Source of the DNA: Leucoraja ocellata
Lineage: Eukaryota
NCBI GenBank assembly: GCA_036785375.1
Contig: JAWMAR010001270.1
Span: 62,001 to 126,000 of the forward strand
DNA length: 64,000 nucleotides
Direction of reading: 5' to 3'
A model generated the notes under the pieces. It had not been told where the DNA came from, searched no databases, and saw only the letters and a list, made by a program, of their open reading frames with translations. Numbering within the stretch: the first letter of the stretch is position 1; every line of letters starts with the position of its first letter. This document shows positions 15,037 through 60,124 of the stretch, one piece after another. A program made the position numbers and the translations under genes.

Positions 15037-17297
15037 GTGAAGATGCAAGACCTTATCACTTGCCATTTATTGCCTGTCCAATTGAAAGGATCCACATCGC
15101 AGATCAGGGAAGAGGATAGCTATCATGTGCAACAGAAGAAATACCTTGACAGAATCGGAAGCCGACGTGTTAATAACCAGTGCTTTCCAAGACGAAAGCA
15201 AGAACAGTAATGCCAGTGTCATACAGGTGCAAACATGAACACCTATCCTCCCTCATTTATGCTGCTGTACAGTACATTTGGTGCAATGTTATCAAAATTT
15301 CACAAAGTGAGCTTACGTTCTATAAGAAAATGCCCGTTACTTCAATTTTATAAAAATAATTTTATTTTCACTTAATTAAAACTGTCTTTTCAAATTCATC
15401 CACGGCTTGAAGATTATCAGTTGTTGTGACTGCCATCTGTATTGATACAAAACAGAAAAAATTGCCAACCAACAAACCAGGAGAGAAATGCATTGTTGCC
15501 TAAAGTGATTAGGGCAGTGCGGAACCACAAGGTGCACTCCAAGTCCTTGCAAGAAGTCACTTTTCCACCTGTTCAAATATTTGGACGAAAAGACTTGGAT
15601 ACTTAGATCGAGTTGAGAAGATCTATAATCTCATTGAATGGCTGAATTTAGAGAACAGCATTTTAAAGAATTATGTCTGGGAGTAAGAACAGATTGGTGC
15701 ATTTAACATTGGCTTAAATGCAGGCCATACACATATCATATCCAGGCAGTCCTATTCCACATTTTTCTACATCTTTTTTCTCTCATGCCCGTCAACGTCT
15801 CCTACTCAGCTAACCCAGGGTCAATTTACGGTAAAGAGGAAGGAAAGTGAAGGAAACCCACATTGGCATAACATGTTCACATTGCAGAGCATTAGAAGTA
15901 CAAGTCAGGATAATCTACCACCATTAACTGGTGATTAAAGTACTATTATATATTATGGGATTGGTATAGTGATAGGCTGCCGAGGGCAATAGATGGGGAG
16001 AAAAGGAAATCCACTGCCCGACTCTTAACCTACAGTACCCCACAATACATTGGGAGCCCAGAGTCACCCATTATGGATATACAAACAGCAGTTGTTCACC
16101 TCTCCCTTACCAAGGCACAATACCCAACCTCTGCAATAAATTATCGCGATATTATTCGAATCTGCTTTAAATCCGAAGTGCTGATTTTGAAATGTTGTTA
16201 GAATTGCATTTGCATCTGTTTGTATACGCGGCTTCAAATTGCGAATGGAATATTTTCGTAAATGTTCATACTGGGCAGATGTGTGTGGTAGTTTTCAAGC
16301 GAGAAACGAAAGTTGTTTTTATCCTGGAGCTAAAAAAAAGTACTGGAACAACTTTTTCCAAGGAAATGTCCCGACCCGAAATGTCACCCGTCCAATACCT
16401 CCAAAGATGCTAGCCGATTCGCTGAGTTATTCCAACATGGGGGAAGGAGCATGTTCAGTTCCCCCACTTCAGTGCGTGTGATGATTTATTTAGCGACGCT
16501 CAACTTCCAGTGTGTCACTTCCCCAGATTGAGAAATATTCAGTATTCCCTTCGCGTTCGGGAAACATTTATCCTGGTGAAATTTGTACCCTCGTAAACCT
16601 TCACCCCGCGCATTAAAATACAGTACTGCCCAAACACTCGCAAGGACCCAGTTTTCATCCGCACCCAACCACTTGATTATAGATAGCTGTGACAATTTCA
16701 TTTTGTTCCCGTGGCAATCTCTGAAATTAAAACAGCTCGACAAACCACCTCGTTTTGAGGGAAACACAAATGTCTAATACCAATTTCGCCCGCGTTAACT
16801 CTTATACTCCTATTTAGAGCAGCGGCACCTTTCTTATGGGTCACTAGTTGATAGACTCGCATTCTTTGTGCTTTTAATTTACCCCGTCACTTTCCTGCCG
16901 ACGAGAGAGCAGTTTATAACAATAGGACAACTTAAAACGGTTCAAACAATAGCGCGGTTAACTCGTCATAATAACATTGTGATATAATTCTCAAGTGAGA
17001 CAAACGAGTGAACGTCCATTCCAAGGCAACAAAATACATAATATATTTGTCTCTGTTAAAGCTACCCCAACTCCGTTGAAAATCATCCCGGTTAAAGGAA
17101 CTTCATCGCAGTCTCGGAAACTTGTGTGTAAAACGGCGAGCTTTTATCCGGAAAAAATAGAAATCTCCTGGCGGAGAAATAACGAAGAAATTCTGACCAG
17201 AATAGAAACGGTAAAAAAAAAATAGAAGCGCAGAAGGATTGTATGAGGTTTCCAGATTTTTGGAAGGAATTAAACTTGCTTGAGGCGACGCCGTTTA

Positions 17298-17516
17298 AAC
17301 ATAGAAACATAGAAACATAGAAATTAGGTGCAGGAGTAGGCCATTCGGCCCTTCGAGCCTGCACCGCCATTTAATATGATCATGGCTGATCATCCAACTC
17401 AGTATCCCGTACCTGCCTTCTCTCCATACCCTCTGATCCCCTTGGCCACAAGGGCCACATCTAACTCCCTTAAATATAGCCAACGAACTGGCCTCAACTA
17501 CCCACTGTGGCAGAGA
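17298..17516 (-). mobile_element. CR1 family A 3' fragment inserted in the G2 C1 exon
   Basis: (CATAGAAA)n tail; GTTTA duplicated at 17293-17297 and 17517-17521. Confidence 0.9.
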
Positions 17517-17708
17517 GTTTACACCTGCTTGGTATATCATGTTTCCCTTGAGGTGCCAGCAGCTCTCAGCTACACCGTCAAAAAAGGTAAGATTGTAATT
17601 ACTTGCAGACAAGAGCGGGTGTATATGTCCAACCTGGTTAGAATTTAAATATACAGCTGCTCAAACACGGGGACAATGGCTAGATACGACCCGTGTTTAT
17701 TCGTAATG

Positions 17709-24990: not shown

Positions 24991-25514
24991 CACTTGGAAA
25001 CAAAGTTGTGGCAAGATAATTACTGGATAATGCTAGATTGCAGGTACTTTGTAATCTGAAATTAATCACGAAATATTGTGAATTCTAGGTGGTCGAGGAC
25101 AATCTGTGGAGAAAGAGAAACAGTAAATATTTCTATATTATAACAGAAATGATCAACTCGAGACGTTAGTTCTATTTCGCAATCTGACCTGTTGCAGGAT
25201 TCCAGTCAATTCCACCAAACGGTAGAAAACAGTATTTTCTTGTTAATGGCAATCCAACACATCTTGTCGAAAGGAGAATAAAAACGCAATCTAACCAATT
25301 ATTCCCATCAGGCATTGTTAATAATATTTGGAAAACGCATCTGCGATGACGTCATCAACAATGTAAGGGTCTAACGTTATGGAAAACAAAATTATGTTGC
25401 CCAAAGCTTTCCGCGCCTCCTGTTTACTAAATTAATCTAATTTAATGAAACTTTAAAAATATAGGAGCCATCTTGGAACCATTTAATCGAAGTTAAATTA
25501 ATAATGCAAACATG

Positions 25515-27040
25515 TAGTGTAGAAATAGCAGGGGCTATGACAGAAATATTTCAAATGTCATTAGAAACGGGAATAGTGCCGGAGGATTGGCGTACTGCGC
25601 ATGTTGTTCCATTGTTTAAAAAGGGGTCTAAGAGTAAACCTAGCAATTATAGACCTGTTAGTTTGACGTCAGTGGTGGGCAAATTAATGGAAAGAATACT
25701 TAGAGATAATATATATAAGCATCTGGATAAACAGGGTCTGATTAGGAACAGTCAACATGGATTTGTGCCTGGAAGGTCTTGTTTAACTAATCTTCTTGAA
25801 TTTTTTGAAGATGTTACACGGGAAATTGATGAGGGTAACGCAGTGGATGTTGTGTATATGGACTTCAGTAAGGCCTTTGACAAGGTTCCTCATGGAAGGT
25901 TGGTTAAGAAGGTTCAATGGTTGGGTATTAATGGTGGAGTAGCAAGATGCATTCAACAGTGGCTGAATGGGAGATGCCAGAGAGTAATGGTGGATGGTTG
26001 TTTGTCAGGTTGGAGGCCAGTGACGAGTGGGGTGCCACAGGGATCTGTGTTGGGTCCACTGTTGTTTGTCATGTACATCAATGATCTGGATGATGGTGTG
26101 GTAAATTGGATTAGTAAGTATGCAGATGATACTAAGATAGGTGGGGTTGCGGGTAATGAAGTAGAGTTTCAAAGTCTACAGAGAGATTTATGCCAGTTGG
26201 AAGAGTGGGCTGAAAGATGGCAGATGGAGTTTAATGCTGATAAGTGTGAGGTGCTACATCTTGGCAGGACAAATCAAAATAGGACGTACATGGTAAATGG
26301 TAGGGAATTGAAGAATGTAGGTGAACAGAGGGATCTGGGAATAACTGTGCACAGTTCCCTGAAAGTGGAATCTCATGTAGATAGGGTGGTAAAGAAAACT
26401 TTTGGTGTGCTGGCCTTTATAAATCAGAGCATTGAGTATAGAAGTTGGGATGTAATGTTAAAATTGTACAAGGCATTGGTGAGGCCAATTCTGGAGCATG
26501 GTGTACAATTTTGGTCGCCTAATTATAGGAAGGATGTCAACAAAATAGAGAGAGTACAGAGGATATTTACTAGAATGTTGCCTGGGTTTCAGCAACTAAG
26601 TTACAGAGAAAGGTTGAACAAGTTAGGGCTTTATTCTTTGGAGCGCAGAAGGTTAAGGGGGGACTTGATAGAGGTTTTTTAAATGATGAGAGGGATAGAC
26701 AGAGTTGACGTGGAAAAGCTTTTCCCACTGAGAGTAGGGAAGATTCAAACAAGGGGACATGACATGGGAATTAAGGGACTGAAGTTTAGGGGTAACATGA
26801 GGGGGAACTTCTTTACTCAGAGAGTGGTAGCTGTGTGGAATGAGCTTCCAGTGAAGGTGGTGGAGGCAGGTTCGTTTTTATCATTTAAAAATAAATTGGA
26901 TAGTTATATGGATGGGAAGGGAATGGAGGGTTATGGTCTGAGCGCAGGTATATGGGACTAGGGGAGATTATGTGTTCGGCACGGACTAGAAGGGTCGAGA
27001 TGCCCTGTTTCCGTGCTGTAATTGTTATATGGTTATATGG
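25515..27040 (+). mobile_element. CR1 family B, 5'-truncated RT (single nonsense TAA at 26680-26682)
   Basis: YADD, GVPQGSVLGP and ATATGGTT tail; absent from copy B. Confidence 0.95.
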
Positions 27041-27045
27041 TAATG

Positions 27046-27735
27046 ATTGAAGGTAGGCATACAGGTGCAGCAGGCAGTAAAGAAAGCGAATGGTATGTTG
27101 GCTTTCGTAGCAAAAGGATTTGAGTATAGGAGCAGGGAGGTTCTACTGCAGTTGTACAGGGTCTTGGTGATACCACACCTGGAGTATTGCGTACAGTTTT
27201 GGTCTCCAAATCTGAGGAAGGACATTATTGTCATAGAGGGAGTGCAGAGAAGGTTCACCAGACTGATTCCTGGGATGTCAGGACTGTCTTATGAAGAAAG
27301 ACTGGATAGACTTGGTTTATACTCTCTAGAATTTAGGAGATTGAGAGGGGATCTTATAGAAACTTACAAAATTCTTAAGGGGTTGGACAGGATAGATGCA
27401 GGAAGCTTGTTCCCGATGTTGGGGAAGTCCAGGACAAGGGGTCACAGCTTAAGGATAAGGGAGAAATCATTTAAAACCGAGATGAGGAGAACTTTTTTCA
27501 CACAGAGAGTGGTGAATCTCTGGTACTCTCTGCCACAGAGGGTAGTTGAGGCCAGTCCATTGGCTATATTTAAGAGGGAGTTAGATGTGGCCCTTGTGGC
27601 CAAGGGGATCAGAGGGTATGGAGAGAAGGCAGGTACGGGATACTGAGTTGGATGATCAGCCATGATCATATTGAATGGCGGTGCATGCTCGAAGGGCCGA
27701 ATGGCACCTAATTTCTATGTTTCTATGTTTCTATG
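27046..27735 (+). mobile_element. CR1 family A 3' fragment directly behind the family B copy
   Basis: Near-identical to 9751-10450; TTTCTATG tail. Confidence 0.95.
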
Positions 27736-29636: not shown

Positions 29637-32600
29637 ATGTCGGTGAAAGTTAGAGTTTGGTCCATGGCTCTTCTGGTCATACTAACGCAGGGTATAGTTA
29701 AAATGTGTGCCATTTCTGGTCTAAGTATTATTTTACGAAAATTCGAGCTATTAGGTTCATCTATTTGGCCCTCGTGGGTTTATAGTTGTTTCGTGCTTTT
29801 CGACAGTTGGTTCCTGTTTTCTCTGTCCAGTGTTTACAAATGTTTCAATTGTTCTTGCATTTTTCCCGACAGCTACCGAAGTCTATCCGACCAGAGTGTC
29901 CCAATTCCCTGTCAACTTGGACGTTGGCGGCGGTGAACACGCTATCATGTATTGCAAATTTCCAATATCGAAAGGCGATATTGGCGTTAATTGGTGGAGG
30001 GACGGCATGAAGACATTCCTTGAACCGGACAGTAGAAAACAATTTACCATAGATTCTGGAAGCGGAACATTTACTTTCCAACATGTGCGTGTAGCTGACT
30101 CCGGCCTGTATTACTGTCAAGTAAAGTTCCAGCAGAAGGTTATCGGAAATGGAAGTGGCAGCCTGATCACCGTATTTGGTGAGTGTGTGTGTTAGGGAAA
30201 TAAGCAAGTTTCAGTTCTATGTCATTTGTAAAGTCTAGTCGGGAGGACAATGTGAAAAATCGCCTGTTGATAAATATCCAGTAATAACAATTTTAAATTA
30301 CAGGGACCAGTAATTCAAAATAAAACAAAGCACAATGGACATAACCAGCAGGTCGAGTCGCACTTGTGGGACGCGTGGGTATTGAGGGTTATTCTGTTCA
30401 TTGTACGATACTTTGCGAGACTCCTTTTCATTGCCGCTATGAATGGGCGCAGCCCATTCATTTAGCGGTCCCGAATTTTAAGCCAATCTCCCAGATGGAT
30501 TTATCGCTAAGAACGGGTAAATGCTGAGATGGAAGGAATTAATTCTGAGGTGTGGTTAGAAATGTTTTGCAATGAGATATTGAAATAATATTCCTGTTAG
30601 TTTGAGTGGTTGGAGTGTGATGTCCAGGTTTCTCATCACTAAGAAAAGAGAGTAGGAGCAATTTTAATACGTCGATGGTAGAGTCTGTCATGCCTCTATT
30701 CTACATCGACAGCTTTAGAACCTCATAAGACCAATGTGCTGCTGCAACCCAAGGACCTTGGTCTTCCAACATGTGGGACTCATCGCTGCTGATTCCAAGC
30801 TGACTTCAATGAAATCTTTTTTCTTTTTTTTGACATCGCTTGACACTAATTTTGTCAGGCATAACCTCAGTCTATTCAACCAATTTGGCAACGTACGGGG
30901 GGAAAAAAGAAGTAAACAACATCTCAAATGAAATTATTTAAAGTCCGGGAATAAACAGTAACATTTATTTCATCATTAAAGATTATCCTGATTAAGTGAA
31001 TTAAGTCAAGCTTTCTAAAGATTTGTAATAAACGGACAATGCAACCCAACAATCAACTCTCCGTCCAGTTAGACACCGGCTGCAGCTCGTACGGAAGGAG
31101 TTCGCGTTAATAAATGCCAAATATAGGGCCTTTTACGTGCAGACCTAAATGAGTAGAATCTGCACAGCGGGAAACAGAGCTTGTTATTTTCCATCGTTTG
31201 GCTTCTGCAAGCTATCATCATTAACGCCGATCTAACGTTGTCGATTCACTGCCGCCAAGTTGGCACAACAGATGGAACTGATTTGTATAGAGACACAAAA
31301 TGCTGGAGTAACTCAGCGGGGCAGGCAGCATCTCTGGGTAGAAGGAATGAGTGACGTTTGGGGTCGATACCCTTCTTCAAACCTCGATCCGAAACGTCAC
31401 CCATTCCTTCTCCGAAGAGATGTTGCCTGTCCCGCTGAGTTACTGCAACATATATTCGGTTTAAACCAGCATCTGCAGTTCTTTCCTACATACTGATATT
31501 GAATAAGTGCGCTCGTAAATTGCTTGTAATAGAAACCACGGTGTTTCACTATAAGCATTCAATGCGCGAGAAAGGTGTTCCAGCACTTGGTTCACATGCA
31601 GGTAAATGGTTGTGATCGGCATTTCAAACCCATATCTGGTTCTGGTTCTGGTTGATTACTGCGCAAACACGTGATAAGTGGTTATCTCCCGCATGTCGGA
31701 GTGAGTAGAGTAGAGTAGTGATTAAATGTTGAAGTGGGTGTTTTTGACCAGGGTGAGAAGATTTAATCCATATACTACTTAAAGTGCTAACGGGATTCAT
31801 CATTAATCTTCATGTATAACCGCTTCCTGTCACCACACTATACGAATCTGTTATATTTCGATTATGATGGCTCCATTTCTTTTGCAACATATGAATGATC
31901 CGAACATGGCCACTTTTAAATAATCACGGCAGGCTTCTGGCAAAAGCTTTCGCGCGATACCGGGGAACGTCCATTCAGAACAGAGTTTATTTTGGAACTC
32001 CTTAAATTCTGTTGGCACTCCTTAAATTCACCCTCTTTGTATGTTGGCGGAGTTCGTCCGGGTGTCCGCTAGGAAAGGGAGTATAAATGAACGACAAACT
32101 GGGAAGTTTAAATATTAAATAATTTGGTCTTGCCAAATACGACTCGGTGGCGAGATAAAATGTAAATATTTACAATGAAATGGAAAGCGAACACCCGATA
32201 TTTTTTTTTCTTTGCTTAAGATCCCCCAACTCCCTTGACAATTGTTCCTGCTGAAGGACATGGCTCTCCACGGAAACTTGTGTGCAAAACTGACGCCTTT
32301 TATCCGGAGAAATTAGAAATATTCTGGCTAAGAAATAACGAGGAAATTCGCACTGGAATCGAAACTGTGAAAAATCAGAGCGAAGAAGGATTGTTTGTGG
32401 CTACTAGTTCTTTGGAAATAACGCAGCCTGGGGAGGGCAAAGATATTTACACCTGTCTGGTATCACATGTCTCCCTGAAGGTGGCGGCCAGTTTCAGTTA
32501 TACCCTGGGCCAAGGTAAGACTGGAGCCAGTTACACATGATATTGGGGCGGTAGATCAAATTCGATCAGATTAATAACTGGACAGCTTTCCGTACACGGA

Positions 32601-35258
32601 GCGAAAGGTAAATGTGGCTCGCATTTGTTCGCATGAAAGCAACACTTGTATGCTGTATAAAATGAATTGCAGTCCATCAGTTCTTGTAAGGAAATCCGTG
32701 TGAGATGAATTGACAAACTGAATTGATATAGTGTTTGTAATGAGCAAAAACGTCCTGGGATATGCGGTATTCCGCTGTCTGGTGAAATATATGAAGATAA
32801 AACCTAAATTCCGTTTAACGTTAGTAAGCAGCTTTCCACACATGGGCACAATACAACGGCAATTGTTTGTCCTGTGGATTCCATTACTAACTTCCACCTG
32901 GTGCCGCATGATATACCTTCCAAACTTTCCGATGTGGGTATTAAAATGCACCTACGAAATGATTTACCTTCTTGACTGCCGTTTGTATATTTGTTCTGAA
33001 ATGTATAAATTCTTTACAGTTTCTTAATTTTCAGTTGCTTCATCAGGAATTGATCGCAAACAGATTATCGTATATGCAGTAGGTGGATCAGTACTTTTAA
33101 TTCTGATTATAATCGTGATAAGACTCAGTTTAAAGATGTGGCCCGGTAAGAATCTTGATAATTTACAATAATCATTTCTATGGTTAAAAACAGCATGGAT
33201 ATGTCAATGGTGTTTGCTCAAAGAGATTTCTGAAGCCGGTTTTGATATATGTCTGTGATAATATATGATGGATCTTCAAATTCAATTATATCAGCTTGGA
33301 ATTGGATTATTCAATTATCACCTTTGCATATATTTTCAAATATAAGGAATTATTCAAACATCCAGTGTGATGGATAATGAGTGCAATGGAAGATTACGAT
33401 TTTGAAGAAAAAACAACTGTGGTTTTCTGTGGCAATGAACAAAACCAATCATCTCCTTATTTTTACATTACATTGCTGTTTTGACATGGACACAATTCCT
33501 TATAAACCATCACAATGTTAAAGTTTCAGTTAAGATTTAGGTCCAGTGGGCGCAACATCACGAAAGGGTACATAGGAACATAGAAAATAGGTGCAGGAGT
33601 AGGCCCGTGTTTATTCGTAATGAGAGAACAATGTTTCAAAATCACAAATCAATCATGGAGCAAGAAGCTCAAAGGCTAATAAACCATTGAGGTGTTCTGT
33701 GATATCGCTAAATTCCTAAATGTTTATAAATTTCTATATATTATATCATTCACGTTTTTCCTGTTTCTCTCTTGATCCATAAGTTGCAGATAAAAACCTA
33801 ATTATCGGATGCGCAGTGGGTGTGTTGGCAGTTTTAGTTTTGGTCATTATCTTGATAAGACTCCAAGTAAAGGCACAAAATGGTGAGAATTATACATATT
33901 TTACACTATTCTCGGTATTAATCATAATGGTGGTTAAAAAACCAAGGGCAGTAAATGCTATTCGATTGCAAAACAATAAAATAATTGAGAATAAAGCTGA
34001 CCATTAACAATGACAAAAATAAAACTTAAGATATAAATCTTACATCTTCCCATGTCAATGAATGTTTCAATCGTCGTAGATTTTTGTTGTCTCCATCGGT
34101 TACTGAATTCACCGAAATTCGGTAGTGGTGCCGAAGCCGAGGGATATTAAGCAGAGTGCAGTGATAACACTTTCAATCTACCAAGTTTGGAATGGGGTCA
34201 AGGAAAGAGCGTTCACGCCCGGCCCTGCTTTCACCAATCTTTCCACCACTACGCACTTGAAGCACAAGAACAGACACCATTGTATGCAGATGCCGAGGCG
34301 TGTGTTCAGCTCTGGTTGAACAACTTCTAATCTTGTGTGTGGTCTCGATAAGAAGAGTACGCAATGTTGGATGATTTCAGCCCAAGGACAATATGAACAA
34401 CTCTTATTTCCTAGCGACCGTTGATTTCCTGACAATTGTGCAGGCAGGTTCAACGTAGAATTTGCCCCATGGGAATATAGGTTAAATTGTCTATCAGCGA
34501 ATCTTAAAATTGTACTTTGCATTATCAGCATATTTAATACGTAATATTAAATGTTTGCTACTTTAAATCTACTATTCGTCTGCCCCCTTAAGCAGATTCC
34601 ATTTACGTTCATACAAATGATCGGCAATAACGAAGAAAGCTAATGTTGTTCTGTGGGCCAGGAATGATTAGTAGCACCGAAGGTCAACACTAAGTGAAAT
34701 CAGGGAAAGAAAATTAATGAAGAATGGCCAAAAAATATCTGATAACAGTATCCAATTGGCAGATCACTGGAAGATCGCTAACTCAACCAAACAAAACTAA
34801 AACACAGAATAATCCATCCCAGCAGTAGCGCGCAATACAGTTTTAGAATAAACTACTGTTTTCTCAACTCATTAGAAGCAGTTCCCCAACTTGCAGTAAA
34901 GCACTTTTAATCCCGTGCCCGTGTATCATTAAAGGTGACGGATAGCAATTCCATATTTGTTTGCACGTCGGTGCAGTCTCATGGATTAGTATGAATCCTG
35001 AAGTGTATATACATTCTCTATGAGACTGGTAGTATTTTGTTTCAAAATCGTATTCTTTGTGCCACCAGAGGGTAATTGACTAATGGCCGATATAAATTAC
35101 TTTCACAGACTAAAGATGATAGATTCTACGTTATATCATGTCGATTTGCAGTTACTCAACTCCAATCAGCAGTAACATTTAACCAGAAAGAGGAACATGT
35201 ACCTTATGCAGATGGAAATGTTTTAAAGAAGGAGCGAAGCTGGAAATCGAAGCTGTAG
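29637..35258 (+). CDS. G3: chimeric VJ-C1 receptor: L 29637-29691, V 29873-30178, C1 32221-32514, TM-a 33047-33145, TM-b 33784-33882 (G2-derived), G2-derived terminal exon 35109-35258; probably tailless
   Basis: L, V, C1 and both TM exons are open with canonical splice sites. Sequence after 33604 is a copy of the G2 3' half. The actual 3' splicing is uncertain. Confidence 0.75.
29873..30178 (+). CDS. G3 V-J Ig exon
   Basis: MYC...VNWW...DSGLYYC...IGNGSGSLITVF; cgacag| and G|gtgagt; 306 nt. Confidence 0.95.
32221..32514 (+). CDS. G3 C1 exon
   Basis: LVCKTDAFYPEKLEIFW...YTCLVSHVSL; ttaag| and G|gtaaga. Confidence 0.95.
33047..33145 (+). CDS. G3 TM-a exon GIDRKQIIVYAVGGSVLLILIIIVIRLSLKMWP
   Basis: 99 nt, phase 1-1; paralog of 47521-47619. 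Confidence 0.85.
33784..33882 (+). CDS. G3 TM-b exon VADKNLIIGCAVGVLAVLVLVIILIRLQVKAQN (duplicate of G2 TM)
   Basis: 99 nt, ataag| and G|gtgaga; near-identical to 18398-18496. Confidence 0.75.
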
Positions 35259-44149: not shown

Positions 44150-47100
44150 ATGTCGGTGAAAGTTAGAGTTTGGTCCATGGCTCTTCTGGTCATACTAACG
44201 CAGGGTATAGTTAAAATGTGTGCCATTTCTGGTCTAAGTATTATTTTTCGAAAATTCGGACCTGGTTTCGAGCTATTAGGTTCATCTATTAGGCGCTCGT
44301 GGGTTTATAGTTGTTTCGTGCTTTTCGACAGTTGGTTCCTGTATTCTCTGTCCAGTGTTTACAAATGTTTCAATTGTTCTTGCTTTTTCCCCGACAGCTA
44401 CCGAAGTCTATTCGACCAGAGTGTCCCAATTCCCTGCCATCTTGGACGTTGGCGGCGGTGAACATGCTATAATGTATTGCACATTTCCAATATCGAAAGA
44501 CACTATTGGCGTTAATTGGTGGAGGGACGGCATGAAGACATTCCTTGAACCGGACAGTAGAAAACAATTTACGATAGATTCTGGAAGGGAAATATTTACT
44601 CTCCAACATGTGCGTGTCGCTGACTCCGGTCTGTATTACTGTCAAGTGAAGTTCAAGCATCAGGTTATCGGGAATGGAAGTGGCAGCCTGATCACCGTAT
44701 TTGGTGAGTGTGTGTGTTAGGGAAATAAGCAATTTTCAGTTCTATGTCGTTTGTAAAGTCTAGTCGCGAGGATAATATGAAAAATCGCCTGTTGATAAAT
44801 ATCCGGTAATAACAATTTTAAATTACAGGGACCAGTAATTCAAAGCACAATGTACATAATCACCAGGTCGAGTAGCACTTGTGGGACGCGTGGGTATTGA
44901 GGGTTATTCTGTTCATTGTACGATACTTTGCGAGACTCCTTTTCATTGCCACTATGAATGGGCGCAGCCCATTCATTTAGCGGTCCCGAATTTTAAGCCA
45001 ATCTCCCAGATGGATGTATCGCTAAGAACGGGTAAATGCTGAGATGGAAGGAATTCATTCTGAGGTGTGGTTAGAAATGTTTTGCAATGAGATATTTAAA
45101 TAATATTCCTGTTAGTTTGAGTGGCTGGAGTGTGATATCCAGGTTTCTCATCACTAAGAAAAGAGAGTAGGAGCAATTTTAATACGTCGATGGTAGAGTC
45201 TGTCATGCCTCTAATTCTACATCGACAGCTTTAGAACCTCATAAGACCAATGTGCTGCTGCAACCCAAGGACCTTGGTATTCCAACATGTGGGACTCATC
45301 GCTGCTGATTCCAAGCTACTTCAATTAAATCGTTTTTCTTTTTTTTTGACATCGCTTGACACTAATTTTGTCAGGCATAACCTCAGTCTATTCAACCAAT
45401 TTGGCACCGTACGGGGGAAAAAAGAAGTAAACAACATCTCAACTGAAATTATTTAAAGTCCGGGAATAAACAGTAACATTTATTTCATCGTTAAAGATTA
45501 TCCTGATTAAGTGAATTAAGTCAAGCTTTCTAAAGATTTGTAATAAACGGACAAAGCAACCCAACAATCAACTCCCCGTCCAGTTAGACACCGGCTGCAG
45601 CTCGTACGGAAGGAGTTCGCGTTAATAAATGCCAAATATAGGACCTTTTACGTGCAGACCTAAATGAGTAGAATCTCAGCTTTTTCTTTTCCCTCGTTTG
45701 GCTTCTGCCAGCTATCATCATTAACGCCGATCTAGCGTTGTCGATTCACTGTCGCCAAGTTGGCACAACAGATGGAACTGATTTGTATAGAGACACAAAA
45801 TGCTGGAGTAACTCAGCGGGGCAGGCAGCATCTCTGGGTAGAAGGAATGAGTGACGTTTGGGGTCGATACCCTTCTTCAAACCTCGATCCGAAACGTCAC
45901 CTATTCGTTCTCCGAAGAGATGTTGTTCGGTTTAAACCAGCTTTTGTAGTTCTTTCCTACATACTGACATAGAATAAGTGCGCTCGTAGATTGCTTGTAA
46001 TAGAAACCACGGTGTTTCACTATAAGCATTCAATGCGCGAGAAAGGTAGGTGTTCCAGCACTTGGTTCACATGCAGGTAAATGGTTGTGATCGGCATTTC
46101 AAACCCATATCTGATTCTGGTTCTGGTTGATTACTGCGCAAACACCTCATGTGGTTATCTCGCGCAGGTCGGAGTGAGTAGAGTAGAGTAGTGATTAAAT
46201 GTTGAAGTGGGTGTTTTTGACCAGGGTGAGGAGATTTAATCCATATACTACTTAAAGTGCTAACGGGATTAAACATTAATCTTCATGTATAACCGCTTCC
46301 TGTCATCACACTATACAAATCTGTTATATTTCGATTATGATGCCTCCATTTCTTTTGCAACATATGAATGATCCGAACATGGCCACTTTTAAATAATCAC
46401 GGCAGGCTTCTGGCAAAAACTTTCGCGCGATACCGGGGAACGTCCATTCAGAACAGAGTTTATTTTGGAACTCCTTAAATTCTGTTGGCACTCCTTTAAT
46501 TCACCCTCTTTGTATCTTGGTGGAGTTCGTCCGTGTGTCCGCTAGGAAAGGGAGTATAAATGAACGACAAACTGGGAAGTTTAAATATTAAATAATTTGG
46601 TCTTGACAAATACGACTCGGTGGCGAGATAAAATGTAAATATTTGCAATGAAATGGAAAGCGAACACCGATACATTTTTTTTTCTTTGCTTAAGATCCCC
46701 CAACTCCCTTGACAATTGTTCCTGCTGAAGGACTTGGATCTCCACGGAAACTTGTGTGCAAAACTGGCGCCTTTTATCCGGAGAAATTAGAAATATTTTG
46801 GCTAAGAAATAACGAGGAAATTCGCACTGGAATCGAAACTGTGAAAAAACCGAGCGAAGAAGGATTGTTTGTGGCTACTAGTTCTTTGGAAATAACGCAG
46901 CCTGGGGAGGGCAAAGATATTTACACCTGTCTGGTATCACATGTCTCCCTGAAGGTGGCGGCCAGTTTCAGTTATACCCTGGGCCAAGGTAAGACTGGAG
47001 CCAGTTACACATGATATTGGGGCGGTAGATCAAATTCGATCAGATTAATAACTGGACAGCTTTCCGTACACGGAGCGAAGGGTAAATGTGGCTCGCATTT

Positions 47101-50100
47101 ATTTGCATGAAAGCAACACTTGCATGCTGTTTAAAATGAATTGCACTCCATCAGTTCTTGTAAGGAAATCCGTGTGAGATGAATCGACAAACTGAATTGA
47201 TATAATGATTGTAATGAGCAAAAACGTCCTGGGATATGCATATATCTACTGTCTGGTGAAATATATGAAGATAAAGCCTAAATTCCGTTTAACGTCAGTA
47301 AGCAGCTTTCCACACATGGGCACAATACAACGGCAATTGTTTGTCCTGTGGATTCCATTACTAACTTCCATCTGGTGCCTCATGATATACCTTCCAAACT
47401 TTCCGATGTGGGTATTAAAATGCACCTACGAAATGATTTGCCTTGTTGACTTCCGTTTGTATATTTGTTCTGAAATGTATAAATTCTTTACAGTTTCTTA
47501 ATTTTCAGTTCCTTCATCAGGAATTGATCGCAAACAGATGATCGTATATGCAGTAGGTGGATCAGTAATTTTAATTCTGATTACAATCGTGATAAGACTC
47601 AGCTTAAAGATATGGCACGGTAAGAATCTTGATAATAATCATACAATAATCATTTCTATGGTTAAAACGAGAATGTATATGTCAATGGTGTTTGCTCACA
47701 GAGGAGAAAAGGAAACGTAGATGGACATGTAAAGAAATTTCTGAAGCCGGTTTTGATATATGTGTGTGATAATATGATGGATCTTCAAATTCAATTATTT
47801 CAGCTTGGAATTGGATGTATTCAATTATCACCTATGCATATATTTTCAAATATAAGGAATTTTTCAAATCCAGTGTGATTGATAATTAATGCAATGGAAG
47901 ATTACGATTTTGAGGAAAAAACAACTGTGGCTTTCTGTGGCAATGAGCAAAACCAAACATCTCCATATGTTTACATGACATTGCTGTTTCGACATGGACA
48001 CGGTTCCTCATAAACCATTACAATTTTAAAGTTTCAGTTAAAATTTAGGTCCAGTGGGCGCAACATCACGAAAGAGTACAAGATGCGTTGTATTGTTATA
48101 ATTGTGACAATTGGTGCTGCTGAGCACCATCGGATATTTAAAAATGCAATCGTTCTTATTTTCTGCAGTAAATTTGATTAAAATGAGAAGAATAATGTCA
48201 AAATCTACAGATCAATCTTTACAATTCAAGTTGTTTTTATGTAACTCTTATTTCATTCCTCTAGGCCATAACGTAACCTCTGTAGGAATACGTCCGAAAG
48301 GGGAGCCGGTAGGTGAAATGTCTCCTCGTGTTTCAAAATAGGGATTATTCGTAGCAGAAATATTATAAATCAGTTTTATTCTATAGTATCGTGGAATACT
48401 CTAGGGCAGGATGAAACCATTATTTATTTTTCAGGTTACGTCAAGTATACATCCACTAATAATTTGAAAATTCCTGTTGTATCTGCTTCAACATCTTTTG
48501 ACAATTCCATGCCAGATCATATCCTAATTTATTCTAGTGAAAGGTGATGTTTAGGATGAAAATATGAGCCTTTATTAGTTCTGGTGGCAGGAATACTTAA
48601 AAATATACGGTACGGTAATTAAAATAAAAATGAAAAGAACCTTTGTCGAGAATTTAATTTGCTTTCTTGAGCCGTTCTTTAACGTGTTAATTGCAGTTTT
48701 GGCTTCGATCCTTAACGAAGGGCCATTTAACCGGATATCGTGGATAGGGGAGAACCAGTTGATGTGGTGTATCTGGACTTCCAGAAGGCTTTCGACAAGG
48801 TCCCACATAAGAGATTAGTATACAAACTTAAAGTACGCGGCATTGGGGGTTCAGTATTGATGTGGATAGAGAACTGGCTGGCAAACAGAAAGCAAAGAGT
48901 AGGAGTAAACGGGTCCTTTTCACAATGGCGGGCAGTGACTAGTGGGGTACCGCAAGGCTCAGTGCTGGGACCCCAGCTATTTACAATATATATTAATGAT
49001 CTGGATGAAGGAATTGAAGGCAATATCTCCAAGTTTGCGGATGACACTAAGCTGGAGGGCAGTGTTAGCTGTGAGGAGGATGCTAGGAGACTGCAAGGTG
49101 ACTTGGATAGGCTGGGTAAGTGGGCAAATGTTTGGCAGATGCAGTATAATGTGGATAAATGTGAAGTTATCCATTTTGGTGGCAAAAACAGGAAAGCAGA
49201 CTATTATCTAAATGGTGGCCGACTAGGAAAAGGAGAGATGCAGCGAGACCTGGGTGTCATGGTACACCAGTTATTGAAAGTAGGCATGCAGGTGCAGCAG
49301 GCAGTGAAGAAAGCGAATGGTATGTTAGCTTTCATAGCAAAATGATTTGAGTATAGGAGCAGGGAGGTTCTACTGCAGTTGTACAGGGTCTTGGTGAGAC
49401 CACACCTGGAGTATTGCGTACAGTTTTGGTCTCCAAATCTGAGGAAGGACATTATTGCCATAGAGGGAGTGCAGAGAAGGTTCACCAGACTGTCAGGACT
49501 GTCTTATGAAGAAAGACTGGATAGACTTGGTTTATGCTCTCTAGAATTTAGGAGATTGAGAGGGGATCTTATAGAAACTTACAAAATTCTTAAGGGGTTG
49601 GACAGGCTAGATGCAGGAAGATTGCTCCCGATGTTGGGGAAGTCCAGGACAAGGGGTCACAGCTTACGGATAAGGGGGAAATCCTTTAAAACCGAGATGA
49701 GAAGAACTTTTTTCGCACAGAGAGTGGTGAATCTCTGGAACTCTCTGCCGCAGAGGGTAGTCGAGGCCGGTTCATTGGCTATATTTAAGAGGGAGTTAGA
49801 TGTGGCCCTTGTGGCTAAGGGGATCAGAGGGTATGGAGAGAAGGCAGGCACGGGATACTGAGTTGGATGATCAGCCATGATCATATTGAATGGCGGTGCA
49901 GGCTCGAAGGGCCGAATGGCCTACTCCTGCACCTAATTTCTATGTTTCTATGTTTCTATGTTTCTATATGGCCTACATGGCATCGAAACTGCTTCCCACA
50001 AAATTACTATTTTGTGCTGGCTGCTAAATGGAATCCCACAAATGGATCTTCCACTCTGCAATGCTTAGAAGAAGAAATCTCCAAAATCTGCAAAATACTG

Positions 50101-52006
50101 ATATTCGTATTGGCACTGGTTAATTATTGTCATGTACACCGAGATTCAATTATAAACTTTATTTTGCGTGCAATCCGGAAAATGGATACCATATATGGGT
50201 ACAATCAAACCATACCCAAGTGCAAAAAGGGAAATGACACAGGGTGCAAAATATTGTGTTACAGCTAAAGAGAAATTCCACATTTTAAAAGCGCAAGGAC
50301 CAGAACGAGGTAAATCACAGATCAGGATTGCACCATTAGCTTGCTTGACGCCTGTTTAGTAACTTGATAACATCGAGTATAAAGCCGTTTTTAAATCTTA
50401 CACAAGGCGATTTCAAGCTATTTGTATTCTGTCTGAGGGAAGAGGAGAGAATGACGGAAGCTGGTTTACGTGGTTGGCTGGGCTGCAATCACAGGTTCCT
50501 GCGTTTCTTAAGGTCCTGGGCAAAGCTGTCGCTAAACCAATTTGGGATTCATCCCCATATAATTATTTAGACAGTGCAGCTGTGGAATTTGGGAAGAGAC
50601 TTTGGAGACCGTCCAACTTTCCTTGGTCCTCTGGGAAGGTCGAGGCAACGGTGTGCTTTCATGGCGTTAGAATTAATGTGGTTGGACCAGTGCAAATTAT
50701 TGGTGATGTTTATCGCCAGGAAACTCGACCAACACCATTATCCACCCCTTCCTTGAAATGACATAGTTGGTAATATAATTGAAAGCAAGTGAAATGTTAA
50801 TCTATTCCTCTATATCCCGCGTGCATCGATTTTCAGCCCCAGTTACACTTCTAGTGCCATATCAGCTATATAAGCCTGGTCACCCGCAGTATTAAATGTA
50901 CTTTTCTAATAGGTGAGACAAGCACCAATTGAACATACCGCTGCCTATGCTACGCTGAATTTAAGCGAGAGCAAAGGATTTTCAAATGGTCTACAAGAAG
51001 AACAACATGTCGCCTATTCACAGGTAATGCTCTTGGACAGCGTAATTAAGATATGGAATGAGCATTGTTCCAAATGTAGTTGCTTTTCCCAAACTGCAGG
51101 GAAAATATAAGTGCACAATGGCAAATCTTCATTTAAGTAAAACCTATCACCCGCTACTCATCAGAGCATAAATATAATTTTCCTTTCCTTATTCGGGTTT
51201 AAATTCAAATGTAAATTGTATGTGAAGAAATAAAGGGTGGGAAGCTAGGAACACACAAACCTACCCAGTTCTCATAATCAGGGCGAAATTAAATACAAAT
51301 GCAAGACAATGGCCTGGGAAAAGAGAGTAAACAAGCCGTTCAAATTATCCACCGAATAGGGGATTCGTGTCAAAAACTGGGGACGCAGAGCCATAGGAAG
51401 TAGTACCAACTTATATTCTATTGCATTTCGGTGCCACTGATGAAGAGGTGAGCCGCGGTGTCTATTGGAGAGGTACCGGTAGCTTCAGTCTGCGAACCAC
51501 CTCTTGGGCTCGACAGGCAAAATGGATTCCCGCCAATCCCACAAATACACTTTAAAAGGGGCTTCGTATTATGCCAAATATTTAATACTGCGGATACAAT
51601 TTTGAGCATTCACCAATTCTCCTAACTTTCGTAATTACATCGAAGTTGACATAAACGAAAAATAAAATAATTCTTTTGTGGGACAAGAACAGCTCCTCGC
51701 GTTTAAACTCAATATCAAGCAGAAAGGTATAGCCAAAAATAAATCTGCAAATCAATACCATTGTAAAAATAACAACTGATGGGTTGCATAAAATATTATT
51801 TTAAAGCAGTATGCTCAAATTCGTCACTGAATGATTGCCTAATCACCGATCATTAATTACTTTCGCAGACTAAAAGAGGTGGACATGACAAGCTGACCTA
51901 CGCAACTGTGCAACATGACAACCCCAAGAAAACGTCAGCATCCAAACAGAACAACAAATACACGGTGTACGCAGATGTGAATACTTCAACAAAGACGTGT
52001 AACTGA
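44150..52006 (+). CDS. G4: complete inhibitory VJ-C1-TM-ITIM/ITSM receptor, join(44150-44204,44398-44703,46695-46988,47521-47619,48265-48308,50913-51023,51869-52006), 348 aa
   Basis: Seven exons, all GT-AG, phases 1,1,1,1,0,0, 1047 nt open frame. The tail carries AAYATL, VAYSQT, LTYATV (ITIM) and TVYADV (ITSM). AATAAA at 52014-52019. Confidence 0.9.
44398..44703 (+). CDS. G4 V-J Ig exon
   Basis: MYC...VNWW...DSGLYYC...IGNGSGSLITVF; 306 nt. Confidence 0.95.
46695..46988 (+). CDS. G4 C1 exon
   Basis: LVCKTGAFYPEKLEIFW...YTCLVSHVSL; canonical splice sites. Confidence 0.95.
47521..47619 (+). CDS. G4 TM exon
   Basis: GIDRKQMIVYAVGGSVILILITIVIRLSLKIWH, 99 nt. Confidence 0.9.
48739..49965 (+). 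mobile_element. CR1 family A RT fragment in a G4 intron
   Basis: Near-identical to 9217-10450, with one stop (49343-49345) and a 12-bp deletion; TSD ATAT. Confidence 0.95.
50095..50750 (-). mobile_element. Decayed Rex1/Babar-type LINE 3' fragment
   Basis: Similar in layout to 55010-55880. Confidence 0.5.
50913..51023 (+). CDS. G4 cytoplasmic exon 2 VRQAPIEHTAAYATLNLSESKGFSNGLQEEQHVAYSQ
   Basis: tttctaatag| and CAG|gtaatg; phase 0-0; two tyrosines. Confidence 0.85.
51869..52006 (+). CDS. G4 terminal exon TKRGGHDKLTYATVQHDNPKKTSASKQNNKYTVYADVNTSTKTCN*
   Basis: tttcgcag|; canonical ITIM and ITSM. Confidence 0.9.
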   Translation, partial: TKRGGHDKLTYATVQHDNPKKTSASKQNNKYTVYADVNTSTKTCN

Positions 52007-57270: not shown

Positions 57271-60124
57271 CTTACGTTTGCACACACGTTTGATCATCTT
57301 ATGTTCCTTCACACATGTCACCTTTTTTGATTCACGTTTTCTTATTCATCTTACCATAATAACTATTCTTTGTGTATTAAAAATGTGAGCCTGAAATAAC
57401 TAAAAGGAAACACATTTACAAAGATGATTCTTGAACAATTATAACTTTTAAAAAGTTACGTCGCACATTGCATTGACCGGGAACAAACTCCATGGACTAT
57501 ACACCTTCCCAATGCTGGTCTTTAAAAATTTGGCATCACAAGTTGTCAAGTGCTCAAATCTCCAAGAATGCAACAATTTTAAGTTAGCAGTCATACTGTA
57601 AAGAATTCTATTTTTTGTCTGCGAATGTAACAGATTAATACTTGGGAGCAAGGAGCTAGTTAATTCCTGAATTTTAACAATGGAAAGAGGATATAACATT
57701 TTTGCTTATAGTCACATATGGCACCACGGAGAAAGGCAGCAGAGGAATGCACTATATATTGTAAGCGAAAAAGAATGCAATCAAAGATTCAGTTGACTAT
57801 GGGTTTCCCTTTCTAAATTCCTTGTGTGAAGAATTAGACGATCCGAATCAATAGCGAAAAACTCTTAATGGTACGCCGCCCAATTGCCATCTAGTGGATG
57901 ATCAAATCCTTATCAACAACATCACTTGCTGTAATGTATCTCATTTAAATGCTGCAATTGAGGCTTGGAGTTTTTGGCTGAAATGAAAGAAATTCGCAGC
58001 GGGACTAACTCAAAGGTCATCACACCCTCCTGCATTCTAGGTGGGATAATCTGTGACAGAAATATACGAGGCTGAATAGTTGACAGCTCTGTCATCTTAT
58101 GCTCCGGTAGGACAAAGTCTCAATTTGAGAATGAGGTAGAGGTAAATGGATTTCAATATGTGTTGTCCAAACGCGGTGCACCTACAATGGCTGGGAGAGA
58201 AATCATTTTGGAGTAGGAAATCGAAGAAAACATATTTCCTAGATCATACTCGCTGAAATATAAATATACTCAAAATGCATCACGATGCCTTAGTCATGTG
58301 ATTTACGGCGTTGGTGTCACACGCTTCAGGCATTCTATGAAAACCTATTTCTTATGCACACCCTTCTATTTTGCAGTATGCCGGTGAAAGCAGTGGTTCG
58401 GTACATGGGTCTTCTTGCTTTGCTTTGTCAAGGTATGCTTAGTTTCTGTACCGATTTCGCTAAGCAAATCATATTTGACAATATTTTACACTAGTATGCC
58501 ACAGTAAATTAAATTTACAACGTTTCTACAATTGGCTTACCATTATTTCCTAATTGTTTTGTATTTGTGTATCCATTGGCTCTTTTTCTTGGTGCTGTAT
58601 GTACAAATGTTTTCATCATATTTACTTATTTCTGCCACTGACAAAAGCAACTTCGAACAAAGTGGAACAATTCCCCGCAATCCTGAAGGTCCCCAGGGGC
58701 AGAAATGAGACCATGTTCTGCAAATTTCCAATATTAAAATAAACCGCTGACGTTTCATGGTGGAGAGAGGGCGAGAAGACATTTATAGAATCGGACAACA
58801 GAAAACAATTCAAAGTAGGCAAGGGAAGGAGTACATTTACTTTATTGAATGTGAGTGTCGATGACTTCGGGATGTATTACTGTCGAGTGAAACATATCGG
58901 CAATGGAACTGGCTCCCAGCTAATTGTGTTAAGTAAGTGTCTTTGTTACGAATAGTGGGGTATGTTCTTCTGTTGCAATGTTACTAAAGCTTCCTGGTGG
59001 TGGAAATATTAATCTTAACTAGCTCTATAATTTTAATGGTTACTTCCGAGATGGAAATCTGAAATAAAGGGGAAATACTGAAAAATATTCCATCCGTCGG
59101 TCAATATAAGTTCAGCGAGAGTTCTGTTATAGTTTTGTTTTATTTACTCCGGGTTATGTTAAAAAGTCATAGTGACGTTACCCTGGTTATGGCTCTTGTA
59201 AATTGGCAGGTCACTTTATATTTTGACCTCCAGCTTTTCAAATACCCAACCAAATTCACGTTACTCCGAATTTCCAGAAAGTTGCAAATTTCCCACGCCG
59301 ACAAACTTTCACATCAACTAAAAACGGAGGAGAAATTGATCTCACAGTTTTGAGGTGGATAATTTTGTTTTCACATTCACTGTCTCCAGGAAAGTTCATG
59401 GAATGAAAAAAGAAAAGAAAGAACTACAACTGAAATTCTCCGATATTATTTCTTTGCTTGGTAATCATTTATATGGCACAGGGAGTAAAATGTAATATAT
59501 CTTTATTAATTAATAATTATAGTACAATGAGATGTTATTACAGAAATGAAGGAAAATACATATGCTTAAACAGAAACGAGGTGATTACGCAATGAATTGA
59601 CAAAAAAAGGTACAATTAACTCTCCCGCTCGCTAAATATTACTGACAGTGGCTCCAGCACAAATGGAACCATGGTCGTTAATGTCTTGTTAATAAAATAT
59701 ATGAAATGAGAAACAGAGTTTGCTCCGTTCATCCTTGCGTGCTTTTCGAGAAAAGCAGTTGTCGCCGATGTACTTCTGCCATTCAGTGCAGTCCATTTTC
59801 TGTAACTACCATATGCACATAAGAAAGAGCAAATGTTCAGAAGAAATGCGTGATTTTGAATTCAACATAAAGCACTGTCACGGAATCTTACCAAGCAATA
59901 CCTACCCGTGTCACATTCCTTCATAATAATCGCGCTAGGCAGCACTCCATTCATGCTTTGTTTCAATTACACTACTTACCTTGATATCCTCCGTAGAACA
60001 AAATTATAAACTCAACAAACAACCACACGGATAACAGGAGGCAGCAGCAACGGTTCAGCGACAATTATGTTCATTGAAATAAAATATATTTTGCAGCTTC
60101 ACGCTTTTATTTTTATTGTTCCAG

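What the first reader, a model, noticed from the sequence alone, without database searches (positions are those of the whole stretch)
44398..44703. Loop-focused divergence between recent duplicate V domains
Seen: G3 and G4 differ at 13 of 102 aa in V but only 4 of 98 aa in C1, and their leaders are identical. The changes cluster in the BC loop (GD/DT), the DE/HV4-like region (SGT/REI) and the FG loop (QQK/KHQ). Inference: diversifying selection on a ligand-binding face, for example against polymorphic MHC or pathogen ligands.
Basis: partly seen in the sequence, partly recalled or inferred. Interest (0 to 1): 0.7.

Follow-up and report, generated by a model that had tools for sequence, protein, structure and literature searches.

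The report
Mosaic immune receptors with variable tips
Two neighbouring immune-receptor genes of a cartilaginous fish differ mostly in the outer tip loops of their first domain, likely because they carry two older versions of that domain shuffled among many gene copies; natural selection on a predicted binding surface is possible but is not shown.

Summary
The counts are right: 13/102 aa in V, 4/98 in C1, identical leaders, clustered changes. The inference is only partly supported. The V exon also has 7 silent changes, so pairwise dN/dS is 0.53 (C1 0.62); over 13 genomic copies omega is 0.69 in V and 0.68 in C1. V is older, not faster per silent change. G3 and G4 are not sister copies: they carry two V types (5 'REI', 8 'SGT' copies) on mosaic genes whose C1, TM and tail shuffle independently, and both types occur in runs under two organism labels. 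Tip loops do change faster than framework (omega 1.3 vs 0.5, p=0.01), repeated in seven other subfamilies (1.7 vs 0.5, p=0.0002), but never significantly above 1 (p=0.12-0.50); site and branch tests are negative. No donor paralog was found. Intron stretches show splits as deep as the V peak. G4 is an intact VJ-C1-TM receptor with ITIM/ITSM-type motifs, SIRP-like in plan, not shown to be a SIRP; ten paper searches found no description of the family. The scan holds no look-alike on other DNA. Verdict: real, mostly ordinary immune-multigene evolution; selection open (about 1 in 3).

The parts
44150..44204 (+). G4 leader exon (split leader, phase-1 intron)
   Evidence: identical to G3 leader 29637-29691
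44398..44703 (+). G4 single-exon VJ-type V domain, 'REI' type
   Evidence: Pfam V-set/I-set; model pLDDT 91; 5 of 13 copies are of this type
44499..44504 (+). BC-loop codons 34-35 (DT vs GD); DT is likely ancestral
44586..44594 (+). codons 63-65 (REI vs SGT), end of DE turn and start of strand E; SGT is likely ancestral
44655..44663 (+). FG-loop codons 86-88 (KHQ vs QQK), three independent changes
46695..46988 (+). G4 C1-set exon
   Evidence: Pfam C1-set E=4e-12
47509..47619 (+). G4 transmembrane exon, no charged residue inside the hydrophobic run
48265..48308 (+). G4 first cytoplasmic exon (predicted)
   Evidence: GT-AG introns and open frame
50913..51023 (+). G4 cytoplasmic exon with two tyrosine motifs
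51869..52006 (+). G4 last exon with ITIM-type (LTYATV) and ITSM-type (TVYADV) motifs; 352-aa frame in all
   Evidence: motif names from established knowledge
29873..30178 (+). G3 V exon, 'SGT' type
32221..32514 (+). G3 C1 exon
33035..33882 (+). G3 TM exon followed by a second, G2-type TM exon (33784-33882); no G4-type tail

Best explanation
G3 and G4 carry two V-exon types that are likely older than the surrounding duplication and have likely been shuffled among mosaic gene copies by unequal crossover and gene conversion, and the amino-acid changes gather at the tip loops likely because those positions are weakly constrained. Shown: the array holds 13 close copies on three contigs, 5 REI-type and 8 SGT-type; C1, TM and tail assort without regard to V type; silent and replacement changes are both raised in V; tip omega exceeds framework omega but not 1. 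Inferred: exchange between copies reset C1 and introns more recently than V; the protein works as an inhibitory receptor whose V tip binds a ligand and whose tyrosine motifs recruit phosphatases, as in SIRP-alpha; tip change runs near the neutral rate, perhaps with a few selected sites.
For: Pair omega 0.53 (V) vs 0.62 (C1); 13-copy omega 0.69 vs 0.68 with tree length 0.48 vs 0.29. Synonymous sites in V are more diverged than non-coding DNA of the pair (7/65.5 vs 174/5001, p=0.009), replacement sites not significantly (14/237.5, p=0.07). No fixed difference between V types in C1, TM or beyond 45.5 kb; C1 diversity between types 0.019 equals that within; SGT copies exist with a C1 protein identical to G4's. 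2 of 10 non-coding windows have a best split deeper than V's (0.047, 0.053 vs 0.043) and a third is close (0.040). Site and branch tests negative. Same-split changes within 3 nt also occur in introns (24 of 230 sites vs 6 and 9 at control lags) and C1 (4 of 21). Both V types appear under two organism labels.
Against: Fixed differences between types are 8 replacement to 1 silent. For this split the net divergence peaks on the exon (0.050 vs at most 0.019 outside it). The five REI V exons differ by only 1.2% while their adjacent intron segments differ by 1.7-3.1%. Tip omega estimates sit above 1 in most sets (1.29; 1.70 in seven independent subfamilies; 1.28 pooled; 0.85 in one subfamily) although the tip set includes conserved residues. 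Tip enrichment survives weighting by family variability (p=0.03-0.04) and so does adjacency (p<0.001). Position 64 is G, A or S in all 26 outside sequences and E only in REI. Power is low.
Confidence: 0.55

Rival explanations
1. Selection keeps two functionally different V tips apart while conversion homogenises the rest of the gene (divergence peak, as in primate red/green opsins), and tip residues are under diversifying selection from a polymorphic self or pathogen ligand.
For: Exon-centred peak and 8:1 fixed replacement:silent differences; both types under two organism labels, with REI contigs identical to G4 over codons 49-76 or more; tip omega 1.3-1.7 against framework 0.5, replicated; codon 35 has four states, and codon 63 has both S and R in this subfamily, in a second subfamily and in another organism's contig. 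The peak criterion is from passages of PMC3924837.
Against: No test rejects omega=1 (p=0.12-0.50 for tips; site models p>=0.11; 24-copy M1a/M2a p=1.0); intron splits are as deep; 8 of 13 copies lack the G4-type tail, so some may be freed from constraint; in human SIRP-alpha 13 allelic differences do not change CD47 binding (passages of PMC3974974).
Confidence: 0.33
2. The clusters are short conversion tracts from a more distant paralog.
For: AI at 13-14 and R63 are shared as amino acids with the G5 subfamily, DT with another paralog.
Against: The codons differ in silent positions and the neighbouring codons are unlike, which fits shared ancestry or parallel change; E64-I65 occurs in none of the 15 more distant array copies or the 20 further V exons read. 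An outgroup contig has DT with SGT, and another has R63 with G64-T65, so the tract can be built stepwise. A lost or unassembled donor cannot be excluded.
Confidence: 0.05
3. The clusters are a few multi-nucleotide mutations (or assembly errors), so the number of independent events is too small to mean anything.
For: 7 of the 9 fixed differences lie in three runs of 6 nt or less; like clusters occur in introns; such mutations mimic selection (abstract of 10.1101/165969).
Against: The FG and BC changes fall on several branches; tip enrichment repeats in other subfamilies mostly as single changes; the variants recur in several copies and in independent runs, which excludes assembly error.
Confidence: 0.07

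Closest known systems
SIRP family (SIRP-alpha/CD47)
   Same: V-set domain on C1-set domain, TM, tail with several tyrosine motifs; tandem, variable N-terminal domain. SIRP-alpha (E=7e-28) and SIRP-gamma are among the best solved-structure matches of the family profile. DE and FG loops are in the CD47 interface (PMC3974974 passages).
   Different: One C1 domain, not two (SIRP plan recalled); no charged-TM activating partner among the TM exons seen; neighbour is an OGFOD1 exon, not the genes recalled beside mammalian SIRPs; ligand unknown.
Non-rearranging VJ-C1 antigen-receptor-like genes (UrIg, UrIg2, PRARP)
   Same: Single-exon VJ, split leader, C1 domain; UrIg2 is the second-best profile match (E=1e-34).
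   Different: UrIg has three C1 domains and is secreted, UrIg2 has nine C1 domains in nurse shark (PMC12227049 parts 1-3 of 8); here one C1, inhibitory-type tail, multigene array. PRARP seen only as a name and a reference title.
Divergence peaks under gene conversion (primate red/green opsin exon 5, RHCE/RHD)
   Same: Copies homogenised in introns and one exon with fixed replacement differences.
   Different: The peak here does not stand above the deepest intron splits; no functional difference is known.
KIR/LILR-type receptor arrays with domain shuffling and copy-number variation (recalled)
   Same: Haplotypes differ in copy number; ectodomain types recombine onto different TM and tail ends.
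   Different: Different Ig domain types and lineage; analogy only.

Membership tests
Diversifying selection on a V-domain face | dN/dS above 1 for the domain or for a class of sites | tested here: not met
   pair 0.53; M0 0.68, M1a/M2a, M7/M8, M8a/M8 not significant; 24 copies p=1.0; own implementation, single tree, low power
Diversifying selection on a V-domain face | omega of tip loops above framework | tested here: met
   1.29 vs 0.50 p=0.011; independent subfamilies 1.70 vs 0.49 p=0.0002
Diversifying selection on a V-domain face | omega of tip loops significantly above 1 | tested here: inconclusive
   p=0.50, 0.12, 0.21; 95% range about 0.6-2.7
Diversifying selection on a V-domain face | changed residues contact a ligand | not testable with these tools
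Selection-maintained divergence peak under conversion | frequent exchange among copies | tested here: met
   partitions change along the gene
Selection-maintained divergence peak under conversion | peak higher than the neutral background | tested here: inconclusive
   V 0.043; 2 of 10 non-coding windows higher; no simulation run
Non-rearranging VJ-C1 receptor | V and J-like G strand in one exon, split leader, C1-set domain | tested here: met
SIRP | V-C1-C1 ectodomain (recalled) | tested here: not met
   one C1 exon per gene in this subfamily
SIRP | tyrosine-based inhibitory tail | tested here: met
   G4 and 4 more of 13 copies
SIRP | synteny with NSFL1C/PDYN (recalled) | tested here: inconclusive
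   SEP-domain and opioid-peptide matches lie on other contigs (0 of 5 and 0 of 2 on C26, C578, C1270); assembly is in 5847 contigs; OGFOD1 exon adjacent
SIRP | binds CD47 | not tested
   no job sent; no shark CD47 sequence in hand
UrIg / UrIg2 | three or more C1 domains; MHC or AgR-complex linkage | tested here: not met
   one C1; 0 of 11 MHC class I matches on the three array contigs (linkage itself inconclusive)
NKp30 / NCR3 | single V without C1, charged TM residue (recalled) | tested here: not met
   C1 exon present, uncharged TM

The most novel reading that the evidence does not exclude
An undescribed elasmobranch array of germline VJ-C1 inhibitory receptors, with a VNAR-like short C-D connection, uses its CDR1/HV4/CDR3-like face as an innate paratope, and selection has held two V types apart across a species boundary while conversion reshuffles C1, TM and tail beneath them: a KIR-like system built from antigen-receptor parts.
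Probability: 0.3. Interest if true: 0.62.

Novelty: new member of a known kind. Interest (0 to 1): 0.36.

Why it matters
Cartilaginous fish have no well-defined polymorphic inhibitory receptor family to match mammalian KIR/SIRP (own knowledge; no paper found). A copy-number-variable VJ-C1 array with two defined V types, tailed and tail-less forms, gives a direct test (two recombinant V domains, one ligand screen) of how non-rearranging relatives of antigen receptors diversify. The evolutionary pattern itself, variable tip loops on mosaic copies, is the usual one for immune multigene families.

Tried and rejected
Single-V search for longer homologues: 0 of 45 candidates scored; the alignment search gave 34 of 7994, 20 of them from cartilaginous fish. 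The deep profile search of protein representatives could not be run, so bony-vertebrate orthologues remain untested. No RNA holder listed: no evidence on expression either way. Site models, branch model: negative. Donor paralog: none found. SIRP and MHC synteny: no match on the array contigs, inconclusive. Fold searches: VNAR tops the VIA list (Z 14.6, rmsd 2.2, 96 aligned) but is tied with NCAM2 (14.1) and a TCR (13.7); SIRP and NKp30 are not among the rows shown, which excludes nothing. One search's first count of framework changes (23) is inflated by a misaligned N-terminal stretch in one group; this was trimmed. Rows dropped: one search left out 4 of 28 V copies (one with a stop, one with a deletion, two identical twins); one search left out the two twins; one search used 17 of 20 fetched distant V exons minus one near-twin (16; three singletons unused), left out the stop-bearing copy, and 2 further C26 matches and one on C105 were not used. 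Ten paper searches; the seven aimed at this family found no description. Three papers most likely to mention it (shark NCR3 analysis, UrIg 2023, Ohta 2019) were not held, so absence from print is not established; no supplements were read. Scan look-ups by sequence and by words: nothing.

Full report
What the genes are. The window holds four V exons and five C1 exons in tandem. G4 is a seven-exon, 352-aa frame with GT-AG introns: split leader, single-exon VJ-type V, one C1-set domain, uncharged TM, and a tail with LTYATV and TVYADV motifs; calling these ITIM and ITSM rests on established knowledge. G3 has the same front half but, past a duplication junction, is followed by a second TM exon and no such tail, as an earlier scan note said (e1-9507124; I checked the missing tail, not its retrotransposon mechanism). 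Homologues are in rays, skates, sharks and a chimaera-type record, under automatic names only. The family profile matches UrIg2 and SIRP-alpha among solved structures.

The observation. All counts hold. The contrast of 13 vs 4 gives p=0.04 and the adjacency of changed codons p=0.0009. But V also has 7 silent changes: dN/dS is 0.53 in V and 0.62 in C1. Against 174/5001 in the pair's non-coding DNA, V's silent sites are the more clearly raised class (p=0.009; replacement sites p=0.07), and the TM exon differs as much as V. On the model (pLDDT 91) 34-35 end the BC loop, 86-87 form the FG turn, and 63-65 begin strand E just after the DE turn: all at the tip by strand order, but not all in loops.

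The pair is the wrong comparison. The genome has 51 matches to this V; 13 are 84-100% identical. They fall in two types, five REI and eight SGT, with nine fixed differences in V (8 replacement, 1 silent), six in about 1.2 kb of adjacent intron and none in C1, TM or beyond. C1, TM and tail assort freely: 5 of 13 copies carry the G4 tail (3 REI, 2 SGT), four run into a G2-type end and four into G5-type sequence. Contigs C1270 and C578 are 99.2-99.6% alike over most of 50 kb at the array's end and are probably two haplotypes with different copy numbers, so the 13 are a mix of paralogs and alleles. Runs under organism labels A and B each hold both types at codons 63-65; one label may be this genome's own species. 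A run under label C has DT with SGT, one under E has T35, SGT and H87, one under F has R63 with G64-T65; with the paralogs this makes DT, SGT and probably H87 ancestral, so both lineages changed. No donor for the derived codons was seen.

Selection tests (own codon-model code, one tree per set, recombination ignored). Thirteen copies: omega 0.68, not different from 1 (p=0.24); M1a/M2a, M7/M8, M8a/M8 all non-significant under two frequency models. Branch between types: omega 0.99. C1: 0.68. Adding the C-D connection removes the contrast (p=0.11). Two neighbouring subfamilies give 0.85 vs 0.42 (p=0.054) and 1.45 vs 1.31 (no contrast). Seven independent subfamilies on C26 give 1.70 vs 0.49 (p=0.0002; against 1, p=0.12); all ten pooled 1.28 vs 0.53 (p=5e-6; against 1, p=0.21). 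Tailed and tail-less copies behave alike.

The divergence peak. For the REI/SGT split net divergence reaches 0.050 in the exon and at most 0.019 outside, the shape described for selection against conversion (passages of PMC3924837). Letting every window pick its own best split, V scores 0.043 and non-coding windows up to 0.053, 2 of 10 higher; by fixed sites V has 9 and the C1-TM intron up to 8. Neighbouring same-split changes occur in 9 of 39 V sites, 4 of 21 C1 sites and 24 of 230 intron sites, so part of the clustering is mutational, a known source of false signals (abstract of 10.1101/165969).

How it most likely works. Shown: anatomy, mosaic structure, two V types, faster change at the tip. 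Inferred: an inhibitory leukocyte receptor that binds a ligand with the V tip and signals through its tyrosine motifs; unequal crossover and conversion recombine V, C1, TM and tail; tail-less copies are decoys or decaying. The V excess between G3 and G4 is mainly the age of the two V types plus weak constraint at the tip (0.55). Selection holding the types apart stays a serious rival (0.33): the estimates lean above 1 and the data are too few to reject it. Human SIRP-alpha is a caution: two alleles differing at 13 residues bind CD47 alike (passages of PMC3974974).

Known and new. It works like a SIRP or KIR-type array and is built like the non-rearranging VJ-C1 genes (PMC12227049 parts 1-3 of 8 and passages; passages of PMC10751288). 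It fails the recalled SIRP domain count and the UrIg domain count, and sits beside an OGFOD1 exon. No description of the family turned up in the searches named under Tried and rejected, but key papers were not held. The pattern is a new case of a known kind; interest 0.36.

Noticed in passing
window 58641-58931: G5 V exon has an in-frame stop at codon 34 and a 12-nt deletion in the FG loop; the deletion is shared with a copy on C578, the stop is not.
   Followed up: partly
window 17061-17591: G2 has no V exon in the window and its C1 exon is split by an inverted LINE end; its TM and tail end are duplicated behind G3 and several other copies.
   Followed up: partly
L114:2873-3325 (G000:C26 about 12.088 Mb): Exon matching human OGFOD1 (E=4.5e-14) about 28 kb from the nearest array gene and among further V genes: a synteny anchor for the family.
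   Followed up: partly
G000:C26 7.83-8.50 Mb and 11.96-12.08 Mb; C105 6.08 Mb: At least 23 more distant VJ-type exons of the same kind, many in near-identical pairs on opposite strands.
   Followed up: partly
G000:C1270 vs C578: Probable haplotypes of one array with different gene numbers (7 vs 5 copies of this subfamily seen, both contigs end in or near the array); a tail-less position holds SGT on one and REI on the other.
   Followed up: partly
window 44398-44703: The V domain has a short C-to-D connection with no C'/C'' strands called; best fold match is a skate VNAR, tied with I-set and TCR domains.
   Followed up: partly
L011 and L013 (V exon, codon 91): Two SGT copies have Arg in place of the first Gly of the J-like motif; one of them keeps the full tail.
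   Followed up: no
window 44373-44735 and 29848-30210, minus strand: A stop-free antisense frame of 121 codons overlies both V exons; probably a by-product of the sense codons.
   Followed up: no
window 8609-10348, 25465-27643, 48731-49858: Long LINE reverse-transcriptase-like frames between the genes, 93-96% alike among several copies; possible substrates for unequal crossover.
   Followed up: no
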